Virus record (IMG/VR): IMGVR_UViG_2825252539_000001
Coordinates: 88,749-152,748 of that record
Direction: 5' to 3' (one strand)
Origin: a virus
Taxonomy: Duplodnaviria; Caudoviricetes
DNA length: 64,000 nt
The notes under the pieces are model-generated. The model was not told the DNA's origin and did no database searches. It saw only the letters and a program-made list of their open reading frames with translations. Positions 1,323 to 42,110 of this stretch are shown in pieces (position 1 is the stretch's first letter; each line of letters opens with the position of its first letter). The position numbers and the translations under genes were made by a program.

Positions 1323-1454
1323 TCATTGGCCGGCGCCGATCAAAGCGTTGATCCGCGCGGTAAACCAGCCGTAGAGCCACGGGTTACCCGCGTTCTGGTA
1401 TTGCGCACGTAGCGCGCGCTGTAGTGGCGTCATGTCCGACGCGTAGACCTTCAT
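1323..1454 (-). CDS. Small hypothetical protein (MKVYASDMTP...)
   Basis: Start overlaps the stop of the upstream ORF. Confidence 0.5.
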   Translation of the reverse strand: MKVYASDMTPLQRALRAQYQNAGNPWLYGWFTARINALIGAGQ

Positions 1455-1729
1455 TTGTAGACGTCCGCTGTACCGTCGGGATTGACCACTACCGTGCACG
1501 GCCACGGAGCGACCAGCTTGCCGGTATCGGAGTAGCAACCGGGCGCATGGCCGTAGTCATCGCTTGCCGGTCCGCAGATACGCAACGCGGTCTCAGTGCA
1601 GCTCCAACCGGGCTCGTCTTCTGCCGGTTGCGCTTGCGCGTGACCCGATAGACCGATGAGGCCAGCCGTTGCGAATGAAGCCGCTAGGACTACCTCAGCG
1701 CCGATAACGACTAGAGCAGTGCGGTTCAT
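1451..1729 (-). CDS. Small secreted or membrane Cys-containing protein
   Basis: MNRTALVVIGAEVVLAASFATAG signal-like N-terminus; 4 Cys. Confidence 0.6.
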   Translation of the reverse strand: MNRTALVVIGAEVVLAASFATAGLIGLSGHAQAQPAEDEPGWSCTETALRICGPASDDYGHAPGCYSDTGKLVAPWPCTVVVNPDGTADVYK

Positions 1730-1887
1730 TACCAGACCCGCCCATCTGCCGTTGCAACCCACGTGCCGTTGCCGTCTTTCACGCTGGCCCACGTAAAGGT
1801 GCGCAGCTCCGACCATTTGGCAATGGCGTCCACGCGGGTATGCGCGGCGAACGTACCGACTCCGCTGTGAATCGTGAATATGTTCAT
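1729..1887 (-). CDS. Small hypothetical protein (MNIFTIHSGVG..., 52 aa)
   Basis: Below the ORF-track cutoff; fills the gap with overlapping start and stop codons. Confidence 0.5.
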   Translation of the reverse strand: MNIFTIHSGVGTFAAHTRVDAIAKWSELRTFTWASVKDGNGTWVATADGRVW

Positions 1888-2084
1888 CGGTTCTCAATCC
1901 CTTCAATCGCTCGGAGCGTGGCAGCTGCGCCCAACCGAGCGCGCTGTTCAAACGTGGTGCCCTTGCGTGATGCCGCCATACGTGCACGGGTCACAGCAGG
2001 GGAGTGATACAGCGGGTGAGCGTGCAACTCGGCACGGTATGCCGGATCACAGACCCGTACGTCCCAGCTGCCGTGTGTCCTCAT
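1884..2084 (-). CDS. Hypothetical protein (MRTHGSWDVR...)
   Basis: ATGA coupling on both sides. Confidence 0.5.
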   Translation of the reverse strand: MRTHGSWDVRVCDPAYRAELHAHPLYHSPAVTRARMAASRKGTTFEQRARLGAAATLRAIEGIENR

Positions 2085-2278
2085 CGGACCGCTACCAAGT
2101 AAGCGGGAACCGTCGCGTGGCACGGTGCACCGTTCCAATCAACCGTCACGGTCTCGACAGTGCGAGCGGTGACGATTCCCAAGTGATACGACGCGAAGCC
2201 GTACCGGTCTAGGAGAACGACGCGCGCGCCGACCGTGGCGCGGGGATTGACCGAAGCGGTGATTTCCGAATTGCTCAT
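2081..2278 (-). CDS. Hypothetical protein, first gene of a leaderless transcript
   Basis: ATG 6 nt after the -10 box. Confidence 0.65.
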   Translation of the reverse strand: MSNSEITASVNPRATVGARVVLLDRYGFASYHLGIVTARTVETVTVDWNGAPCHATVPAYLVAVR

Positions 2279-2323
2279 GACTCCAGACTACCCGTCAGAC
2301 GTACCCCTTGCAAGGGGTACAGC
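2279..2323 (-). promoter_or_regulatory. Leaderless SigA-type promoter with a perfect 20-bp palindrome
   Basis: Minus strand TTGCAA-N17-TAGTCT-N6-ATG; GTACCCCTTGCAAGGGGTAC at 2301-2320. Confidence 0.8.
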
Positions 2324-2373
2324 CGTCGGGTATGTACCACCTTCGCAGTGAACGCGTAGAGCGTCTAACAACA

Positions 2374-2570
2374 GTTTGCTAGCAAACACACATAGTTAGC
2401 TGTGCATGTGTTTGCTGCCCACACTCGAACGGGTTTGTCAAGGGCTCTGACCTGCGGTAACGGGGGGGAGGGTCGAAACTTCGGTTTGCTACCGGGCGGG
2501 TGACATCCGTCAGGGATTTTTCTCCCCGACAAGAAATTCTAGCAAAAAGTGACCGTTGACCAGGGGTTTT
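2374..2570. other. Putative cos/packaging region; candidate 4-nt overhang ATCC at 2505-2508
   Basis: Non-coding strand switch; G-run 2462-2468; TGAC-ATCC-GTCA dyad; TTTTTCTCCCC; repeated GTTTGCT/AGCAAA; lies directly before the packaging genes. Confidence 0.6.
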
Positions 2571-2598
2571 CGGCACATGACAAGCAAGGGAACCCGGA

Positions 2599-3210
2599 TT
2601 GCGGCTACTTGCACACCAAATCGAGATCGTCGAGGCGATCAACAACAATTTCGTGACGTCGATATCCGCGCCACGACAGAACGGCAAATCATATGCCGCC
2701 CTCGCAGCAGCGATAGAGATAGGCGGCAGAACGCTTTTCGTTTCGCAGGGCTTCGCTGCAGCAAAGTGCCGATTCACAGAGGCTGAACGCTATGAATCCG
2801 ACCGCGTCATCAAAGCATGCCGGACCAATGGCGAGCTATCCGTCATCCGCGAAAGCGGAACCATCAACTTCCTCGCGTACTCGAAGTACATCGGCCGCGG
2901 AATGTCCGCTGACACGCTGATCCTCGACGACGCCGACTTCGTCGATAACCCCGAGCTGATCGCGAACCTTTACCCGGTCATCGCCACATCGAAGAACCCG
3001 CGCATCGTCGCCCTCGGCATCCTGCCCGACCGCGGCCTCGCTGCCCACTTCTACGAGTGTGCCGACAAAGTCCTGCACTGGTACGGCGACACCGAGGCGA
3101 AGGCCAACCCCGCTCTTGGCACGCTCATCTCCGAGAAAGCCATCGAGCGTGAGAAGCAGGTCATGCCGCCCGACATCTACCGGCGCGACCGGCTGGGCCT
3201 CTATGACTAA
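2599..3210 (+). CDS. Truncated terminase large-subunit-like ATPase
   Basis: SAPRQNGKS Walker A, LILDDAD Walker B, ANPALG motif; no nuclease domain. Confidence 0.75.
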   Translation: MRLLAHQIEIVEAINNNFVTSISAPRQNGKSYAALAAAIEIGGRTLFVSQGFAAAKCRFTEAERYESDRVIKACRTNGELSVIRESGTINFLAYSKYIGRGMSADTLILDDADFVDNPELIANLYPVIATSKNPRIVALGILPDRGLAAHFYECADKVLHWYGDTEAKANPALGTLISEKAIEREKQVMPPDIYRRDRLGLYD

Positions 3211-26096: not shown

Positions 26097-27293
26097 GTGG
26101 ACGAGAGTCCAGACGCCGTCCTGCAACGTTGGCTCGCTGATCTGAGGTCTGGCGATGCAACCCGAATCGCCGATTCTGCCCGAACCTTTGCCGACTCAAA
26201 GAGCGATCCGCTCAAGGACTTCCGATTTACCGTCTGCGACAAGTTCTGGCAGCCAATCGCCGAGATAGGCGACGACATTATGGAGGCCGCGGGGACTGAT
26301 CCCCGCAATAACCTGGGATCGGCCCACCTGAAGATCAAGGGCACCTCGAAATACATCGCGACCTTCCAGAACTGCAAGAACACGATGGTCGGCGTCATCG
26401 TCGAAACAAAGGGCGCCCGATGGGCGTTCTATGTCGATTCGTTCGACTACGAATTCGCCGACGGGGCCTGGACGGGAACGGTCAACCTCACCTCGATCTG
26501 GGACATCCTGAACTATCTGGTCATCTGGCCAGAGTGGTATCTACCGATTCAGGCTCAACCGGTCTCGCACGCAATCTATTTCGGCGGCATGGTGACCTGC
26601 ATTCAGGCAATGGTCGCCGAGCAGGCGCTTCGAATCCAATCCGGTCTCAACGAGTTCATCAACAACCTGCTGTCCGGCAACCTGGACATGCGGTCATGGG
26701 TGGACACGCTACTGCAGAACAACGGCAATCTCAGCTCGATCCTGAAGACGCCTATCTACGTATGTCGAGACAACCCGTTGGCAGACGGTTCGCCCCTACT
26801 GGTGCGTACCGTTCGAATGGAAACGGTCGGCGCTGTCGTCAAGGACATCACCAAACCGTACGGTGTGGACGTTCGCGTTGACCTTTGGATTCCTGGTGAC
26901 CCACAACCGGATCACTGGACCAACACGATCGACTTCTTGAAACTGAATCAGCCCACATACGTTGTGTCGGTCAAGGACCGGTCGCAGATCAAGGGTCCGT
27001 TCGGGAACGTTCTGGACTCGGTCCTGCGCGAGGTCGTGGACCTCGGCGGTTCAATTATCGGCGACATCATCAAGCCGTTGATCAGCAAGGTCCCTGGCAT
27101 GGACGGTGTATTCCGTTCGCCGGCACTGGGTGTGGATTACGTCCCGCCCTGGGCAACGATTGTCGCCCCCGAACCGGGCGAGAAAAGCCCGCTGGTTACG
27201 TGCAAGATTTCAGATCACACGCCCCGCGGTTGGCAACACGTGGTCGGAGGACGATCGCCTGCGTGGGTCGGTGCCCCTTGGCTTAATCGCTAA
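26097..27293 (+). CDS. Minor tail protein, 5' segment
   Basis: FRFTVCDKFWQPI, WPEWYLPIQAQP; ends at a TAA inside a hairpin. Confidence 0.8.
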   Translation: MDESPDAVLQRWLADLRSGDATRIADSARTFADSKSDPLKDFRFTVCDKFWQPIAEIGDDIMEAAGTDPRNNLGSAHLKIKGTSKYIATFQNCKNTMVGVIVETKGARWAFYVDSFDYEFADGAWTGTVNLTSIWDILNYLVIWPEWYLPIQAQPVSHAIYFGGMVTCIQAMVAEQALRIQSGLNEFINNLLSGNLDMRSWVDTLLQNNGNLSSILKTPIYVCRDNPLADGSPLLVRTVRMETVGAVVKDITKPYGVDVRVDLWIPGDPQPDHWTNTIDFLKLNQPTYVVSVKDRSQIKGPFGNVLDSVLREVVDLGGSIIGDIIKPLISKVPGMDGVFRSPALGVDYVPPWATIVAPEPGEKSPLVTCKISDHTPRGWQHVVGGRSPAWVGAPWLNR

Positions 27294-27322
27294 GGGGCAC
27301 CGACCCACAGGGCAATCCATGG
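27263..27322 (+). other. Hairpin insertion (56-nt coding gap) interrupting the minor tail gene
   Basis: 17-bp perfect stem 27263-27279/27292-27308; matched TGG codons at 27264 and 27320. Confidence 0.75.
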
Positions 27323-27865
27323 CTTAACAATCTGATCAATGCCTACTTGAGCTGGCTGATCGACTCGATCTCGATTCTTATCGGAATCACCGGCCTGCCA
27401 AGCAATATGCTCGAAGGCTTCTTGAACAACGCGTTCTTCGCGTTCCAGTTGATCGAGCTATACCAACGTCGAGACGACATGGGTCCATACCACCCATGTA
27501 TCGAGACCTTCACCGCCTCGCCATCCGCGCCATACAACATCGAGACACTGTTCCAGTTCATCAACCTGTTCTGGGATACGCGCGGATACACAAGCGCCAC
27601 CTTCACTTTCCGTAACGGCGAGCCGTACTGGCTCGGCAAGGACTTGTTCCGCGGAGCGTTGGTCGTCCTCGTGTTCATGGGGCGCACCAGGATCTACACC
27701 GACTACATCGAAAACGTCATGTGGCGCGTCTCGCCAAAAGACCGTGACGTCCTCATCCAAGTTGGCGACGGCCGCGCTGAAGAGGCGCCACTCGCTAAGC
27801 ATCAGCGCAACATCACCGGGGCCTTCGAGGCGATCAACGTCATCACATTGGCGCCCCAGAATTAG
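27320..27865 (+). CDS. Minor tail protein, 3' segment
   Basis: Frame is open from WLNNLINAYLSWLIDS; no SD before TTG 27347. Confidence 0.75.
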   Translation, partial: WLNNLINAYLSWLIDSISILIGITGLPSNMLEGFLNNAFFAFQLIELYQRRDDMGPYHPCIETFTASPSAPYNIETLFQFINLFWDTRGYTSATFTFRNGEPYWLGKDLFRGALVVLVFMGRTRIYTDYIENVMWRVSPKDRDVLIQVGDGRAEEAPLAKHQRNITGAFEAINVITLAPQN

Positions 27866-27874
27866 GAGCCGCCC

Positions 27875-28696
27875 ATGAGTTGGCCAAAAACCCCTGATGG
27901 GAAGTACTACCTCTTCGAGGGGATCGTCCGCGTGCCGGTCGACCCCTCGACGGGGGTAGCGCAACTGCTTCTGCGCCCACGAGGGGGCATGTTAATCGGC
28001 GTCCCGCCTGTCGAAAACGGCGAAGACGGCGCCACTCCCACGATCATGGACGAAATCGTTCTGAACGTACTCGATTGGGACGACGAGAACCCCGACGAGG
28101 CGACGTGGACCGAGATCTCGCCGAACACGTATCAGCTGTCGCTCACCCTCCACAAGGGACAGCCCGGGGATTCCGTTGCCGCTCCGATCCTGAGCGCAAC
28201 GGATCTCACTGGCACGCCGACCGCCAAGTATGTTCTGGCGATCAATAATGCCGGCAACGGCGTGGAGATCGTTCCCAACAAGGTGGGGGACCGGTACTTC
28301 CCTGCGACGATCAACTCGATTTCGGCGGGGAACGCGAATGCAACCCTGTGCTCGATCTCGATCGGTCCATTGCCGTTCGACTGGCGGCCGGTGGCATCTG
28401 GGTATTGCGTCATCACCGGCACTGGAGCGGACGTGCAGGTCGACGTCCTTGCACGTCTTGGGAACGAGAGCACGGGGAACATTGTCGGCCGCGGCACCCA
28501 ACGAGCCGGCCAATACCCGGCGACACACATCCTGCAGCCTGGCATTCCGGCCGGTTCAGCGACTGACTATGACAAGGTCAACGCTGGCCAAACCAAGACG
28601 ATCTACTTCCGCGCTGAACGTCAATCCGGTGGCGACACCTTCACGACGTCTAGCACGACCACCCAGTTCCGGGTGGAGGTGCAGCCGATCCCATGA
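27875..28696 (+). CDS. Minor tail protein
   Basis: MSWPKTPDGKYYLFEG; AGGAG SD; synteny. Confidence 0.8.
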   Translation: MSWPKTPDGKYYLFEGIVRVPVDPSTGVAQLLLRPRGGMLIGVPPVENGEDGATPTIMDEIVLNVLDWDDENPDEATWTEISPNTYQLSLTLHKGQPGDSVAAPILSATDLTGTPTAKYVLAINNAGNGVEIVPNKVGDRYFPATINSISAGNANATLCSISIGPLPFDWRPVASGYCVITGTGADVQVDVLARLGNESTGNIVGRGTQRAGQYPATHILQPGIPAGSATDYDKVNAGQTKTIYFRAERQSGGDTFTTSSTTTQFRVEVQPIP

Positions 28697-41459: not shown

Positions 41460-42110
41460 TCATGCCAATCCGTTCGTTGGAAAGTTGTTACTGTGTCGCC
41501 AGCTCGCCGCGGTCCTGACGTGATCTGGCCGGACCCATTTACCGACTCGCTCGCCGAACTTGTCGTAAGGGATGTTGTGGATCGATCGCACAACGAACCC
41601 CTCGGAGGTCTCGGGGTCTCGCTTGTCGACCCAGATGCTCAATGCGGTCCGTTCATCAGTCCATCCCTGGCCCAGAACGGGAACCGTGGGTAAACCGAGC
41701 AGGGCGGCCCATTCCTCCGTCTGAGACCATGTGAGCAGGTTGTTCCAGTCGTCCCAAATCCCAATCACCATGAGGTACGCCGGCAAGTTGTCGTAGGGCA
41801 CGCTGCGTTGCGCCCACAGCGACTCGGCCGACACCCGCCATCCCTCGGGGATCTCATGCGCAACCTTGGCCCACTCCGACTTCGCGTGCTGCTCCCAACG
41901 GGGCGTGAGATCGCTCGTCGACCGCGCGTGGAAGTAGTCCCGCGCCAGCGTGACGTTACCGCCGTCCATCTTCTCGGTCATCACGACCTGCTCGCGGAAA
42001 AGGTTCTTCGCGGTCTGCGTCGACATCCGCTTGTCATCGTCGGTGGCACCGGGTGATGAGGGAAGATGAGGCGTACGTGGGTACTTGACTCGGGTCAAGG
42101 TATCGGTCAT
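41460..42110 (-). CDS. RNA ligase (ATP-dependent nucleotidyltransferase fold)
   Basis: KYPRTPHL, TEKMDG motif I, EGFVVR, KWVR. Confidence 0.85.
   Translation of the reverse strand: MTDTLTRVKYPRTPHLPSSPGATDDDKRMSTQTAKNLFREQVVMTEKMDGGNVTLARDYFHARSTSDLTPRWEQHAKSEWAKVAHEIPEGWRVSAESLWAQRSVPYDNLPAYLMVIGIWDDWNNLLTWSQTEEWAALLGLPTVPVLGQGWTDERTALSIWVDKRDPETSEGFVVRSIHNIPYDKFGERVGKWVRPDHVRTAASWRHSNNFPTNGLA

What the first reader, a model, noticed from the sequence alone, without database searches (positions are those of the whole stretch)
27263..27330. Minor tail gene split by a 56-nt stop-containing hairpin with matched TGG codons: candidate ribosomal bypass or micro-intron
Seen: ORF1 reads ...GGRSPA-TGG(27264), enters a 17-bp perfect stem (GTGGGTCGGTGCCCCTT/AAGGGGCACCGACCCAC, extendable by 3 bp) and stops at TAA 27291. 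ORF2 resumes in another frame at TGG(27320)-LNNLINAYLSWLIDS and has no SD or start of its own. Skipping 56 nt from TGG to TGG gives a seamless GGRSPAWLNNLIN, which fits my recollection of intact homologs (GGRSPxWLNxLxN; needs checking). A simple -1 shift is blocked by TAA 27284. An SD-like AGGG lies 7 nt before the landing codon, and PWLN (TGGCTTAA) occurs both in the hairpin and at the landing site, allowing an alternative 41-nt hop. Known: T4 gene 60 bypassing uses matched codons, a stop, a hairpin and a mini-SD, though there the stop directly follows the take-off codon. A cluster J phage has a larger intron in a tail gene, but 56 nt is too short for a group I ribozyme. Inference: a programmed hop, or protein-assisted excision (the phage encodes an RNA ligase), gating a probably essential tail protein.
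Basis: partly seen in the sequence, partly recalled or inferred. Interest (0 to 1): 0.92.

Follow-up and report, generated by a model that had tools for sequence, protein, structure and literature searches.

The report
Candidate ribosome-hop cassette in phage tail gene
A conserved, apparently mobile 49-58 base RNA hairpin interrupts an otherwise continuous tail-protein gene in many mycobacteriophages, and its sequence rules suggest that ribosomes jump over it, which would make it a new natural family of translational bypassing.

Summary
The window's Gp37-like minor tail gene is cut after TGG 27264-27266 by a 56-nt insert holding a 20-bp hairpin. The 180-codon C-terminal part resumes at 27323 in another frame with no start codon. 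It is not an artefact or a one-off. I found 24 distinct variants at this site in plaque-forming phages (Cornie, Kersh, Sbash, Che9c, MOOREtheMARYer), prophages and metagenomes, and one at a second site of a homologous gene. Most homologues, including the window's nearest relatives, are intact. Insert lengths fall in all three classes mod 3, so no single frameshift works. The stem covaries (393 of 396 cells paired, 43 G.U). The insert's tail pairs with the upstream exon and changes with it. The insert's last triplet always repeats the first two bases of the preceding codon, in codon register: TGG>TGA/TGG/TGC, TTG>TTA, GTT>GTC, AAG>AAG. That is the take-off/landing rule of translational bypassing (T4 gene 60). 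The insert is scattered on the gene tree and is better conserved than its coding flanks, so it moves. Five of five complete carrier phages lack an RNA ligase. Best reading: a new, mobile bypass cassette (about 0.7). It has no experimental test, and my searches found no report of it.

The parts
26097..27266 (+). N-terminal part of the Gp37-like minor tail protein gene, up to and including the take-off codon
   Evidence: ORF 26097-27293. It matches phrog_20512 at E 6.7e-176 and phrog_110 at profile positions 29-399. Its nearest relatives are intact 545-564 aa proteins, 77-82% identical.
27253..27260 (+). Upstream exon flank (GAU.GCCU within CGATCGCC) that pairs with the tail of the insert (lower helix, 5' strand)
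   Evidence: MFE folds and the RNAalifold GCC:GGC pairs. CGA TCG codons occur in 22 of 23 insert-bearing alleles, whereas CGATCGCC occurs in 1 of 98 intact alleles.
27264..27266 (+). Proposed take-off codon TGG (Trp), base-paired at the foot of the main stem
   Evidence: It is the last codon shared with intact homologues, which read GGRSPxW|LN. It pairs with CCA 27305-27307.
27267..27322 (+). 56-nt insert (coding gap): hairpin, tail and landing triplet
   Evidence: It is absent from intact homologues (Che8; 99 unique intact alleles). It is present with the same architecture in 24 further variants.
27263..27308 (+). Main hairpin P1: 20 bp, loop TTAATC at 27283-27288
   Evidence: Fold. Covariation: 393 of 396 cells paired, 6 pairs with changes on both sides, and 43 G.U cells in 22 variants.
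27291..27293 (+). TAA stop met by ribosomes that stay in the incoming frame
   Evidence: In other variants this stop lies 8 to 206 codons after the take-off codon, so it is not a conserved part of the signal.
27310..27317 (+). Tail segment GGGC.AUC, the 3' strand of the lower helix that pairs with 27253-27260.
   Evidence: The tail changes together with the flank in variants with other flanks: GUCCC/GGGAC in L082, UCUGC/GCAGA in L018, AGGC/GCCU in L022, and CCGAAG/CUUCGG in L273.
27320..27322 (+). Proposed landing triplet TGG, the last three bases of the insert, in frame with the C-terminal part
   Evidence: The equivalent triplet is TGA in 19, TGG in 2 and TGC in 1 of the 22 variants that take off from TGG. 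It is TTA, GTC or AAG where the preceding codon is TTG, GTT or AAG.
27323..27865 (+). C-terminal part of the tail protein gene (180 codons plus stop), with no start codon or SD of its own
   Evidence: It matches phrog_18875 and phrog_110 at positions 395-582. The frame is open for 178-190 codons in all 20 carrier loci long enough to judge. dN/dS is 0.11-0.75, like or below the N-part.

Best explanation
The insert is a programmed translational bypass ('hop') cassette. Ribosomes translate the N-terminal part up to the codon just before the insert (here UGG, Trp). The peptidyl-tRNA then lets go of that codon and the ribosome moves 49-58 nt along the mRNA without decoding. The same tRNA re-pairs with the last triplet of the insert, which shares its first two bases with the take-off codon (here UGG; UGA in most relatives). 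Decoding resumes at the next codon, giving one continuous tail protein of about 570 aa.

The signal is one long hairpin. An 18-20 bp GC-rich stem has the take-off codon at its foot. A lower helix forms between the last ~20 nt of the upstream exon and the tail of the insert. I infer that the ribosome opens this structure on its way to the take-off codon. Once the 3' arm has passed through, the main stem re-forms behind the ribosome. This drives and then stops the forward movement about 11-12 nt past the stem, where the landing triplet lies.

The cassette is mobile between alleles of this tail gene, by recombination with short flanking tracts or by an unknown insertion mechanism. It has also settled at neighbouring codons and at a second site.

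Shown here: conservation, structure, codon matching, patchy distribution, and an intact, selected C-terminal frame. Inferred: the hop itself, its efficiency, and the role of each helix.
For: (1) The cassette is real and recurrent. The same architecture sits at the same site in 24 distinct variants and at a second site in L018. These come from plaque-forming phages (Cornie, Kersh, Sbash, Che9c, MOOREtheMARYer), prophages and metagenomes. Of the 120 best protein relatives, 12 carry it and 106 are intact.

(2) Insert lengths are 49-58 nt, with classes mod 3 of 1:15, 2:6 and 0:4 among 25 variants. The incoming frame stops anywhere from 8 to 206 codons later. No single frameshift or read-through can serve all variants.

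(3) In 25 of 25 variants the insert's last triplet shares bases 1-2 with the codon before the insert. It is in register with the upstream frame at the 5' copy and with the downstream frame at the 3' copy. The pairs are TGG>TGA 19, TGG>TGG 2, TGG>TGC 1, TTG>TTA 1, GTT>GTC 1 and AAG>AAG 1. The last three variants sit one codon to either side of the usual position. The PHROG profile runs continuously across them: 399|400 in L256.

(4) The C-half frame is open for 178-190 codons in 20 of 20 loci long enough to judge. Its dN/dS is like or below that of the N-part. The codons right after the junction keep L/V-N-D with synonymous variation. There is no conserved start codon or SD.

(5) The RNA structure is under selection on the sense strand. 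393 of 396 cells pair, 0 of 500 shuffles reach the covariation score, and 43 cells are G.U. The flank and tail helices change together in variants with different flanks. The insert is more alike than both coding flanks in 95 of 105 pairs.

(6) The conserved fold leaves the two junctions about 20 bp apart along the helix. That fits a ribosome tracking along the mRNA better than a cut-and-join reaction.

(7) In T4 gene 60, matched codons, a stem-loop holding the take-off codon, and pairing of mRNA leaving the ribosome are the known signals. I read the abstracts and outlines of bioRxiv 10.1101/2022.08.31.505936 and 10.1101/2024.12.09.627546.
Against: There is no RNA or protein evidence. No RNA run was listed, and the papers I searched held no proteomics for a carrier phage.

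The codon after the take-off codon (GUC, GCU, GCC or GUG) is an ordinary sense codon. It is not a stop or a rare codon as in gene 60 and, from recall, in the yeast mitochondrial byps.

The stem (about -40 to -50 kcal/mol) is far stronger than the gene 60 take-off hairpin. How a ribosome would slide through it is unexplained.

Most landing triplets (UGA) mismatch tRNA-Trp at the third position.

The upstream peptide differs between site 1, L256 and site 2, so there is no shared nascent-peptide signal.

The SD-like AGGG is confounded by its pairing role, and it is absent or altered in L022, L082, L018 and L273.

The short direct repeats could in principle be footprints of DNA insertion.

The variants are related, so the 19 TGG>TGA cases are not independent. 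The independent support comes from about five classes.
Confidence: 0.7

Rival explanations
1. RNA-level excision. The insert is a tiny intron-like element that host or phage enzymes cut out of the mRNA and re-join, for example a structure-specific nuclease plus an RNA ligase.
For: The structure is a conserved sense-strand RNA fold that includes the 5' exon end, reminiscent of guide pairing. The window's phage encodes an RNA ligase, PF09414. Excision would be indifferent to insert length, as observed.
Against: 0 of 5 complete carrier phages encode PF09414 or RtcB. At 49-58 nt the insert is too small for group I or II cores, and nothing in Rfam reached a gathering score. The fold puts the 5' junction about 20 bp up the helix from the 3' junction. 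The 3' junction lies at a variable distance (6-18 nt) from the main stem (and my reading of the sequences). An RNase III-type staggered cut across the stem would leave the tail with its stop in place. Splicing gives no reason for the last triplet to copy the preceding codon in codon register.
Confidence: 0.12
2. True gene split. Carrier phages make the N- and C-terminal parts as two polypeptides that assemble, and the hairpin is an intercistronic element (terminator, processing or stability site).
For: GenBank annotates two genes in Cornie, Kersh and others. PHROGs holds a family made only of C-terminal pieces, phrog_18875. F-cluster variants have an in-frame ATG five codons after the junction. 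Similar GC hairpins act as terminator-like elements in these hosts.
Against: That ATG is the ancestral Met, also present in intact Che8. It is missing in the window, Sbash, Che9c, L011, L024 and others, where the first canonical start is far downstream. No SD precedes it. The four codons before it stay under amino-acid selection. In 15 of 25 variants the incoming frame runs on for tens to hundreds of codons across the C-half. The second-site insert would leave a 424-codon part without a start. This reading does not explain the codon-matching rule.
Confidence: 0.08
3. DNA-level element. A miniature hairpin transposon (IS200/IS605- or REP-like) or palindromic insertion is excised precisely from some replicating genomes, and those genomes supply the intact gene.
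For: The insert is patchy on the gene tree, needing 16 changes among 108 rows. It occurs at neighbouring codons and at a second site. It has short direct repeats at its ends. G.T-tolerant, strand-specific hairpins also occur in single-strand transposition (recalled knowledge).
Against: There is one copy per genome in the window's record and in 4 of 4 host genomes searched, with no associated transposase seen. The repeats are always in codon register, which DNA insertion does not predict. Consensus genomes of many independent phage isolates keep the insert. Selection for pairing between exon codons and the tail, and strong conservation of the insert, point to a function in the transcript.
Confidence: 0.06
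4. Decay or artefact. The gene is broken (defective prophage) or the insert is an assembly error.
For: The window lies in a provirus record.
Against: The same cassette occurs in plaque-forming phages and in more than 25 independent assemblies. The C-half is intact and under purifying selection. The hairpin covaries.
Confidence: 0.02

Closest known systems
Phage T4 gene 60 translational bypass (50-nt coding gap) and its homologues in Myoviridae topoisomerase genes
   Same: The gap has a similar length (49-58 vs 50 nt). Take-off and landing triplets match. The take-off codon lies inside a stem-loop. mRNA pairing could re-form behind the ribosome. The element is a mobile insert in an essential phage gene and is polymorphic among close relatives.
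   Different: It sits in an unrelated host gene (siphovirus Gp37-like minor tail protein of actinophages). I saw no sequence similarity or adjacent homing endonuclease gene, but I did not run a dedicated test. No stop or hungry codon follows the take-off codon. There is no shared nascent-peptide signal. The 18-20 bp stem is much longer, and an extra helix pairs with the upstream exon. The landing triplet usually differs at the third base (UGA). The gene 60 facts come from the abstracts and outlines read, and from recall.
'byp' elements of Magnusiomyces capitatus mitochondria (recalled: Lang et al. 2014, not read here)
   Same: Both are short GC-rich hairpin inserts of a few tens of nucleotides inside coding regions. 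Both have matching triplets at their two ends, and both are thought to be mobile and neutralised by ribosome hopping.
   Different: The byps are in a eukaryotic organelle with many copies per genome. This element has one copy per phage genome and is confined to one gene family in the data searched. The byps start with a stop or unassigned codon (recalled).
Candidate UUA-dependent bypass in Streptomyces phage terminase genes (PMC10732093; abstract and outline read)
   Same: It is an actinophage structural or packaging gene in two frames, proposed to be joined by bypassing. A UUA triplet appears as the landing triplet in one variant here (L082).
   Different: That system depends on a rare UUA at take-off as a sensor of the host's state. 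Here the take-off codons are ordinary, and the defining feature is a long covarying hairpin.
Group I introns in Cluster J mycobacteriophage capsid and tail genes (PMC3706429; search listing only)
   Same: An intervening sequence in a mycobacteriophage tail gene that must be removed for expression.
   Different: Those are ribozymes several hundred nucleotides long with demonstrated RNA splicing. This element is 49-58 nt, a plain helix, with no Rfam match.

Membership tests
Programmed translational bypassing (gene 60 type) | Two ORFs encode one protein, separated by a non-coding gap absent from intact homologues | tested here: met
   phrog_110 positions run 29-399 then 395-582. 106 of the 120 best relatives are continuous. 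Che8 has no insert.
Programmed translational bypassing (gene 60 type) | Matched take-off and landing codons | tested here: met
   25 of 25 variants share bases 1-2 in codon register. Four take-off codon identities occur (TGG, TTG, GTT, AAG). The third base is identical in 3 of 25.
Programmed translational bypassing (gene 60 type) | Stop or slow-to-decode codon immediately 3' of the take-off codon | tested here: not met
   The next codon is GUC, GCU, GCC or GUG. The first in-frame stop lies 8-206 codons later.
Programmed translational bypassing (gene 60 type) | Stem-loop that includes the take-off codon | tested here: met
   UGG pairs with CCA at the foot of an 18-20 bp covarying stem.
Programmed translational bypassing (gene 60 type) | Nascent-peptide signal upstream of take-off | tested here: inconclusive
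   GGRSPxW is conserved at site 1, but it is equally conserved in intact genes. Site 2 (..WLDRILCW) and L256 (GGHSMPGV) differ.
Programmed translational bypassing (gene 60 type) | SD-like element a few nt 5' of the landing codon | tested here: inconclusive
   AGGG lies 4-10 nt upstream in most variants. However, it pairs with the upstream GCC(N), and it is replaced by other flank-complementary sequences in L022, L082, L018 and L273.
Programmed translational bypassing (gene 60 type) | A single polypeptide is made from unspliced mRNA | not testable with these tools
   No RNA run was listed. No proteomics of a carrier phage turned up in the papers searched.
Self-splicing intron (group I / II) | Catalytic core of hundreds of nt, matching an RNA family model | tested here: not met
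   The insert is 49-58 nt. Rfam gave only chance miRNA-like hits far below their gathering scores.
Miniature hairpin transposon (MITE / REP / IS200-605 derivative) | Multiple dispersed copies in a genome, with terminal signals independent of reading frame | tested here: not met
   There is one site in the window's record and in each of 4 host genomes. The window holds a single match to the core pattern. The end repeats are always in codon register.
Naturally split two-gene form | The second gene has its own start codon and ribosome-binding site | tested here: not met
   The first canonical start in the window's C-frame is TTG 27347, eight codons into conserved sequence, without an SD. There is no conserved start across variants.
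Sipho_Gp37 / phrog_110 minor tail protein (the host gene) | Profile match over both halves | tested here: met
   PHROG matches for both halves. The intact relative P0004 matches PF14594 at E 1.4e-10.

The most novel reading that the evidence does not exclude
This is a bacterial-virus counterpart of the mitochondrial 'byps'. It would be a portable, self-contained bypass cassette that can land after different codons (Lys, Trp, Leu, Val) and at different places in a gene. It adapts its tail to pair with whatever exon sequence lies upstream. It makes mycobacterial ribosomes hop about 50 nt with no stop codon and no nascent-peptide signal. It spreads among phage tail genes like a selfish element, possibly also tuning the amount of full-length tail protein.
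Probability: 0.5. Interest if true: 0.95.

Novelty: new variant of a known kind. Interest (0 to 1): 0.88.

Why it matters
Efficient long-range bypassing is known from very few natural systems. Its rules rest almost entirely on T4 gene 60.

This family would supply a second, unrelated bacterial system with a ready-made natural mutant series. The series includes different take-off codons, loops, tail lengths, flanks and a second site. It also includes near-isogenic carrier and non-carrier phages, such as Kersh and Che8. All of these can be grown on M. smegmatis and are available from teaching collections.

The system would test three questions:
- whether a strong hairpin alone can launch and stop a hop
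- whether two-base re-pairing is enough for landing
- how such cassettes move

There are practical consequences too. The gene is mis-annotated in public records, either as two genes or as one out-of-frame ORF (Sbash, Che9c, MOOREtheMARYer). Anyone recoding or synthesising such phage genomes would need to keep the cassette and its flanks intact.

Tried and rejected
**Frameshift or read-through:** Rejected. Lengths fall in all three classes mod 3. A stop (usually the terminal TGA) closes the downstream frame right up to the junction. An RF2-like +1 shift at ..CUC UGA C would lead out of the needed frame.

**RNase III cut plus ligation:** Rejected on geometry.

**AGGG as a Shine-Dalgarno for landing:** Downgraded to 'unproven' once the tail proved to pair with the upstream exon.

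**Pairing of upstream CGAUCG with downstream CGAUC in exon 2:** Possible only where Asp is GAT (9 of 23 variants). Not pursued.

**RNA evidence:** The look-up of sequencing runs listed no RNA holder for window 26700-27900. The Sbash paper (PMC6426596, passages read) has RNA-seq of the lysogen only, not of late lytic growth.

**Structure:**
- The AlphaFold model of the intact relative P0004 was poor. Mean pLDDT was 59, and the junction sits in a stretch below 50 at the start of a predicted helix. It says nothing reliable about whether the junction is a domain boundary.
- The PDB sequence search gave no match.
- No fold search was run.

**Other searches:**
- Megablast of the gene against phages gave no match.
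- The search for related loci with the single protein found nothing.
- The pattern for the 'WVVALSG' protein class found nothing in viral contigs. The DNA of that class, and of most 'WLVCAP' proteins (P0029, P0083, P0100, P0102, P0111, P0113, P0116), was therefore never seen.
- The covariance-model scan of 151 Mycobacteriaceae genomes gave 15 genomes with hits. I inspected 11 loci. One (L256) is a new tail-gene variant. The other 10 are hairpins with the same GTGCCCC..GGGGCAC core outside this gene, mostly after stop codons by my reading. Three partial-model hits were not inspected.

**Literature:** Searches, with passages read, found no description of this element.

**Tree:** This is FastTree only, on the 330 residues before the junction.
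- Loci with a shorter N-part were left out.
- The window duplicates L026 and L027 were left out.
- The chance motifs L065, L071 and L099 were left out.
- Identical rows were collapsed.
- L140 was first mislabelled 'insert' and was corrected.
- The loci were fetched with patterns that favour intact genes. The share of carriers in the tree therefore means nothing.

**Scripts:**
- In one search the script placed the window's insert end wrongly, in the loop. Lengths in this report use the corrected 56 nt.
- In one search the script stopped with an error after 10 of 11 pairs.
- timed out and was redone with another aligner.
- In one search the 'helix end to landing' column is disturbed by small tail hairpins in 13 rows. 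The 6-18 nt range is partly my own reading of the printed sequences.
Full report
**1. The observation**

- ORF1 (26097-27293) reads ...GGRSPAW, with TGG at 27264-27266. It then enters a hairpin and stops at TAA 27291-27293.
- A second frame opens after TAA 27284-27286. From 27323 it reads LNNLINAYLSWLIDS... for 180 codons, ending at 27865.
- The first canonical start in that frame is TTG 27347, inside conserved sequence and without a ribosome-binding site.
- The hairpin has 20 bp (27263-27282 with 27289-27308). A 106-nt stretch folds at -61.6 kcal/mol, z = -7.9 against shuffles.
- The two halves match one PHROG profile in order: phrog_110 positions 29-399, then 395-582.
- Of the 120 best protein relatives, 106 are continuous proteins of about 560-600 aa reading GGRSPxWLNDLxNA.
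- The window's nearest relatives (77-82% identical) are intact.

**2. The insert recurs in other phages**

A 121-nt query found the same insert in 22 mycobacteriophage records. I read the junctions in several phages.
- Cornie, Kersh, Sbash, Che9c and MOOREtheMARYer carry a hairpin insert immediately after the same TGG.
- Che8 is intact.

Further scans added more variants:
- pattern scans of IMG/VR
- a scan of one genome per prokaryote species
- loci fetched by protein alignment
- a covariance-model scan of 151 Mycobacteriaceae genomes

In all I read 24 distinct variants at this site and one at a second site. Chance matches were set aside: 4 of 21 loci and 43 of 48.

Public annotation does not recognise a recoding event.
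- Cornie and Kersh carry two genes.
- Sbash and Che9c carry one 553-aa ORF that runs out of frame across the C-half.
- MOOREtheMARYer carries an over-long gene 18 plus a 'hypothetical' gene 19.

**3. What expression cannot be**

- Insert lengths are 49-58 nt, with classes mod 3 of 1:15, 2:6 and 0:4.
- The incoming frame ends anywhere from 8 to 206 codons after the take-off codon.
- In most variants the downstream frame is closed by a stop right up to the junction.
- A common frameshift or read-through is therefore excluded.

The C-terminal part is nevertheless maintained.
- It is open for 178-190 codons in all 20 loci long enough to judge.
- Its dN/dS (0.11-0.75) is like or below that of the N-part in the same pairs. 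This includes a pair from an all-carrier clade, L044/L080, with 0.15 against 0.25.
- The first codons after the junction keep L/V-N-D with synonymous variation.
- No start codon is conserved. The ATG five codons downstream in F-cluster phages is the ancestral Met, also present in intact Che8. It is absent in the window, Sbash and others.

**4. Structure**

The main stem of 18 pairs covaries.
- 393 of 396 cells pair.
- Six pairs change on both sides.
- 0 of 500 shuffles reach the covariation score.
- Sliding the partner by one column drops pairing to 52-57%.
- Forty-three cells are G.U, so the structure belongs to the sense strand (RNA, or sense-strand single-stranded DNA).
- Loops fall into a GAAA-tetraloop class and a YTTAAC-like class.

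Below the stem, the last ~20 nt of the upstream exon pair with the tail of the insert, and often with the first downstream codon (17 of 22 MFE folds). Usually GCC(N) pairs with (N)GGC, and GAU with AUC.

This explains a striking codon bias.

| Codon | Carriers (23 unique alleles) | Intact (99 unique alleles) |
|---|---|---|
| Arg | CGA in 22 | CGT 42, CGC 20, AAG 12, CGA 12 |
| Ser | TCG in 22 | AGC 42, TCC 17, TCG 13 |
| Gly-Gly | mostly GGG/GGA then GGA | mostly GGC/GGT first; second codon mixed |
| First downstream codon | CTC in 16, TTG in 0 | TTG in 45, CTC in 29 |

CGATCGCC occurs in 1 of 98 intact alleles.

Where the flank differs, the tail differs in the complementary way:
- GUCCC/GGGAC in L082
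- AGGC/GCCU in L022
- CCGAAG/CUUCGG in L273
- UCUGC/GCAGA at the second site in L018

It might also act as an SD once the helix is opened, but that is not shown.

**5. The codon rule**

In all 25 variants the last triplet of the insert shares its first two bases with the codon just before the insert. It is in register with the upstream frame at one end and with the downstream frame at the other.

| Preceding codon > last triplet | Variants |
|---|---|
| TGG > TGA | 19 (18 at site 1, plus site 2) |
| TGG > TGG | 2 (window, L022) |
| TGG > TGC | 1 (L274) |
| AAG > AAG | 1 (L273) |
| TTG > TTA | 1 (L082) |
| GTT > GTC | 1 (L256) |

- In L273 the cassette sits one codon earlier.
- In L082 and L256 it sits one codon later.
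- In L256, a distant homologue, the PHROG profile runs 399|400 across the junction.

This is what re-pairing of a P-site peptidyl-tRNA predicts. GUU/GUC can share one tRNA. UGG>UGA and UUG>UUA would each be a C34.A third-position mismatch (inference from general knowledge of tRNA sets, not tested). A DNA target duplication or a splice signal gives no reason for codon register in every class. The classes are few (about five independent ones), and the boundaries of any insert flanked by a repeat can be slid, so this is strong but not conclusive.

**6. Mobility**

- On a tree of the 330 residues before the junction (108 rows, 22 carriers), the carrier state needs 16 changes, and at least 12 are forced by well-supported branches.
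- Kersh, L010 and Pollywog are nearly identical there to intact Che8.
- Kersh and Che8 differ by a cluster of synonymous changes within about 30 nt upstream and 45 nt downstream of the insert, several-fold above the gene's background.
- Near-identical inserts sit in diverged genes. Sbash and L013 are 96% identical in the insert but 65-66% in the flanks. The insert is more alike than both flanks in 95 of 105 pairs.
- In L018 the cassette sits about 230 codons upstream, after another TGG and again ending in TGA. Site 1 of that gene is intact, and the 424-codon downstream part is open.
- Each genome searched holds one copy. The cassette moves among alleles and sites of this gene family, but it is not a proliferating repeat.

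**7. Mechanism and rivals**

Bypassing fits the length-independence, the codon rule, the maintained C-half without a start, and a fold whose two junctions are not juxtaposed.

I infer the following sequence of events.
- The ribosome opens the lower helix and most of the stem to reach the take-off codon.
- After release, the stem re-forms behind it as the 3' arm emerges.
- The landing triplet lies 6-18 nt past the stem, most often 11-12 nt. That is about the distance from the mRNA exit to the P site.
- This echoes the proposal that pairing of exiting mRNA drives forward bypassing in gene 60 (abstract of bioRxiv 10.1101/2024.12.09.627546).

Points against bypassing:
- No stop or rare codon follows the take-off codon.
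- There is no shared nascent peptide.
- The stem is very strong.
- The third base is usually mismatched.
- There are no RNA or protein data.

RNA excision is weakened in three ways. RNA ligase and RtcB are absent from 5 of 5 complete carrier phages, although the window's phage has a ligase. The junction geometry does not fit. No ribozyme-like core is present. The two-protein, DNA-excision and artefact readings are weaker still, for the reasons given under rival explanations.

**8. Comparison and novelty**

The closest known systems are:
- T4 gene 60 and its topoisomerase-gene homologues
- the yeast mitochondrial byps (recalled)
- the candidate UUA bypass in Streptomyces phage terminase genes

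This cassette shares the logic of these systems. It differs in host gene, sequence and launch signal. My literature searches found no description of it. An earlier first-stage note in this scan covers the same stretch, and none covers other DNA.

I rate it a new variant of a known kind, of high interest, pending RT-PCR and mass spectrometry on any of the readily available carrier phages.

Noticed in passing
L055, L065, L066, L071-L073, L075 (Actinomycetes genomes); L257, L261, L263-L265 (Mycobacteriaceae genomes): Hairpins with the same GTGCCCC..GGGGCAC core as the cassette recur outside tail genes. Several lie directly after a tRNA gene or a stop codon, like U-less terminators. The cassette's stem may derive from, or mimic, a common host hairpin type.
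   Followed up: partly
L004 (Sbash) 1366-3027; L005 (Che9c) 1366-3027; L006 (MOOREtheMARYer) 1356-2735 and 2837-3133: Public records annotate the interrupted gene as one ORF that runs 70-167 codons out of frame past the hairpin. In MOOREtheMARYer there is also a separate 'hypothetical protein' that is really the end of the tail protein.
   Followed up: yes
window 41460-42110 (-): A 216-aa RNA ligase (PF09414, E 2e-21). An earlier first-stage note lists it with a CCA-adding enzyme and other RNA-repair genes. It is absent from five other carrier phages, so it is probably unrelated to the cassette.
   Followed up: partly
PHROGs family phrog_18875 (175 positions): This family consists of the C-terminal piece only, so it was probably built from the 'second genes' annotated in carrier phages.
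   Followed up: no
window 27279-27286 and 27320-27327: TGGCTTAA occurs both in the hairpin's upper stem and loop and at the landing site. A 41-nt hop would add five residues (VGAPW). The repeat is specific to this variant.
   Followed up: yes
Corndog tape measure gene (PMC4351075, passages read): The Cluster O paper reports peptides from an apparent non-coding gap after an HNH insertion. It considers ACG initiation or ribosome bypassing. This is another unresolved recoding case in a mycobacteriophage tail module.
   Followed up: no
P0041 (459 aa): This relative is intact at the cassette site but goes out of frame about 10 residues later (..NATFSWRPMDNRQ..). It is a different break, or a sequencing error.
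   Followed up: no
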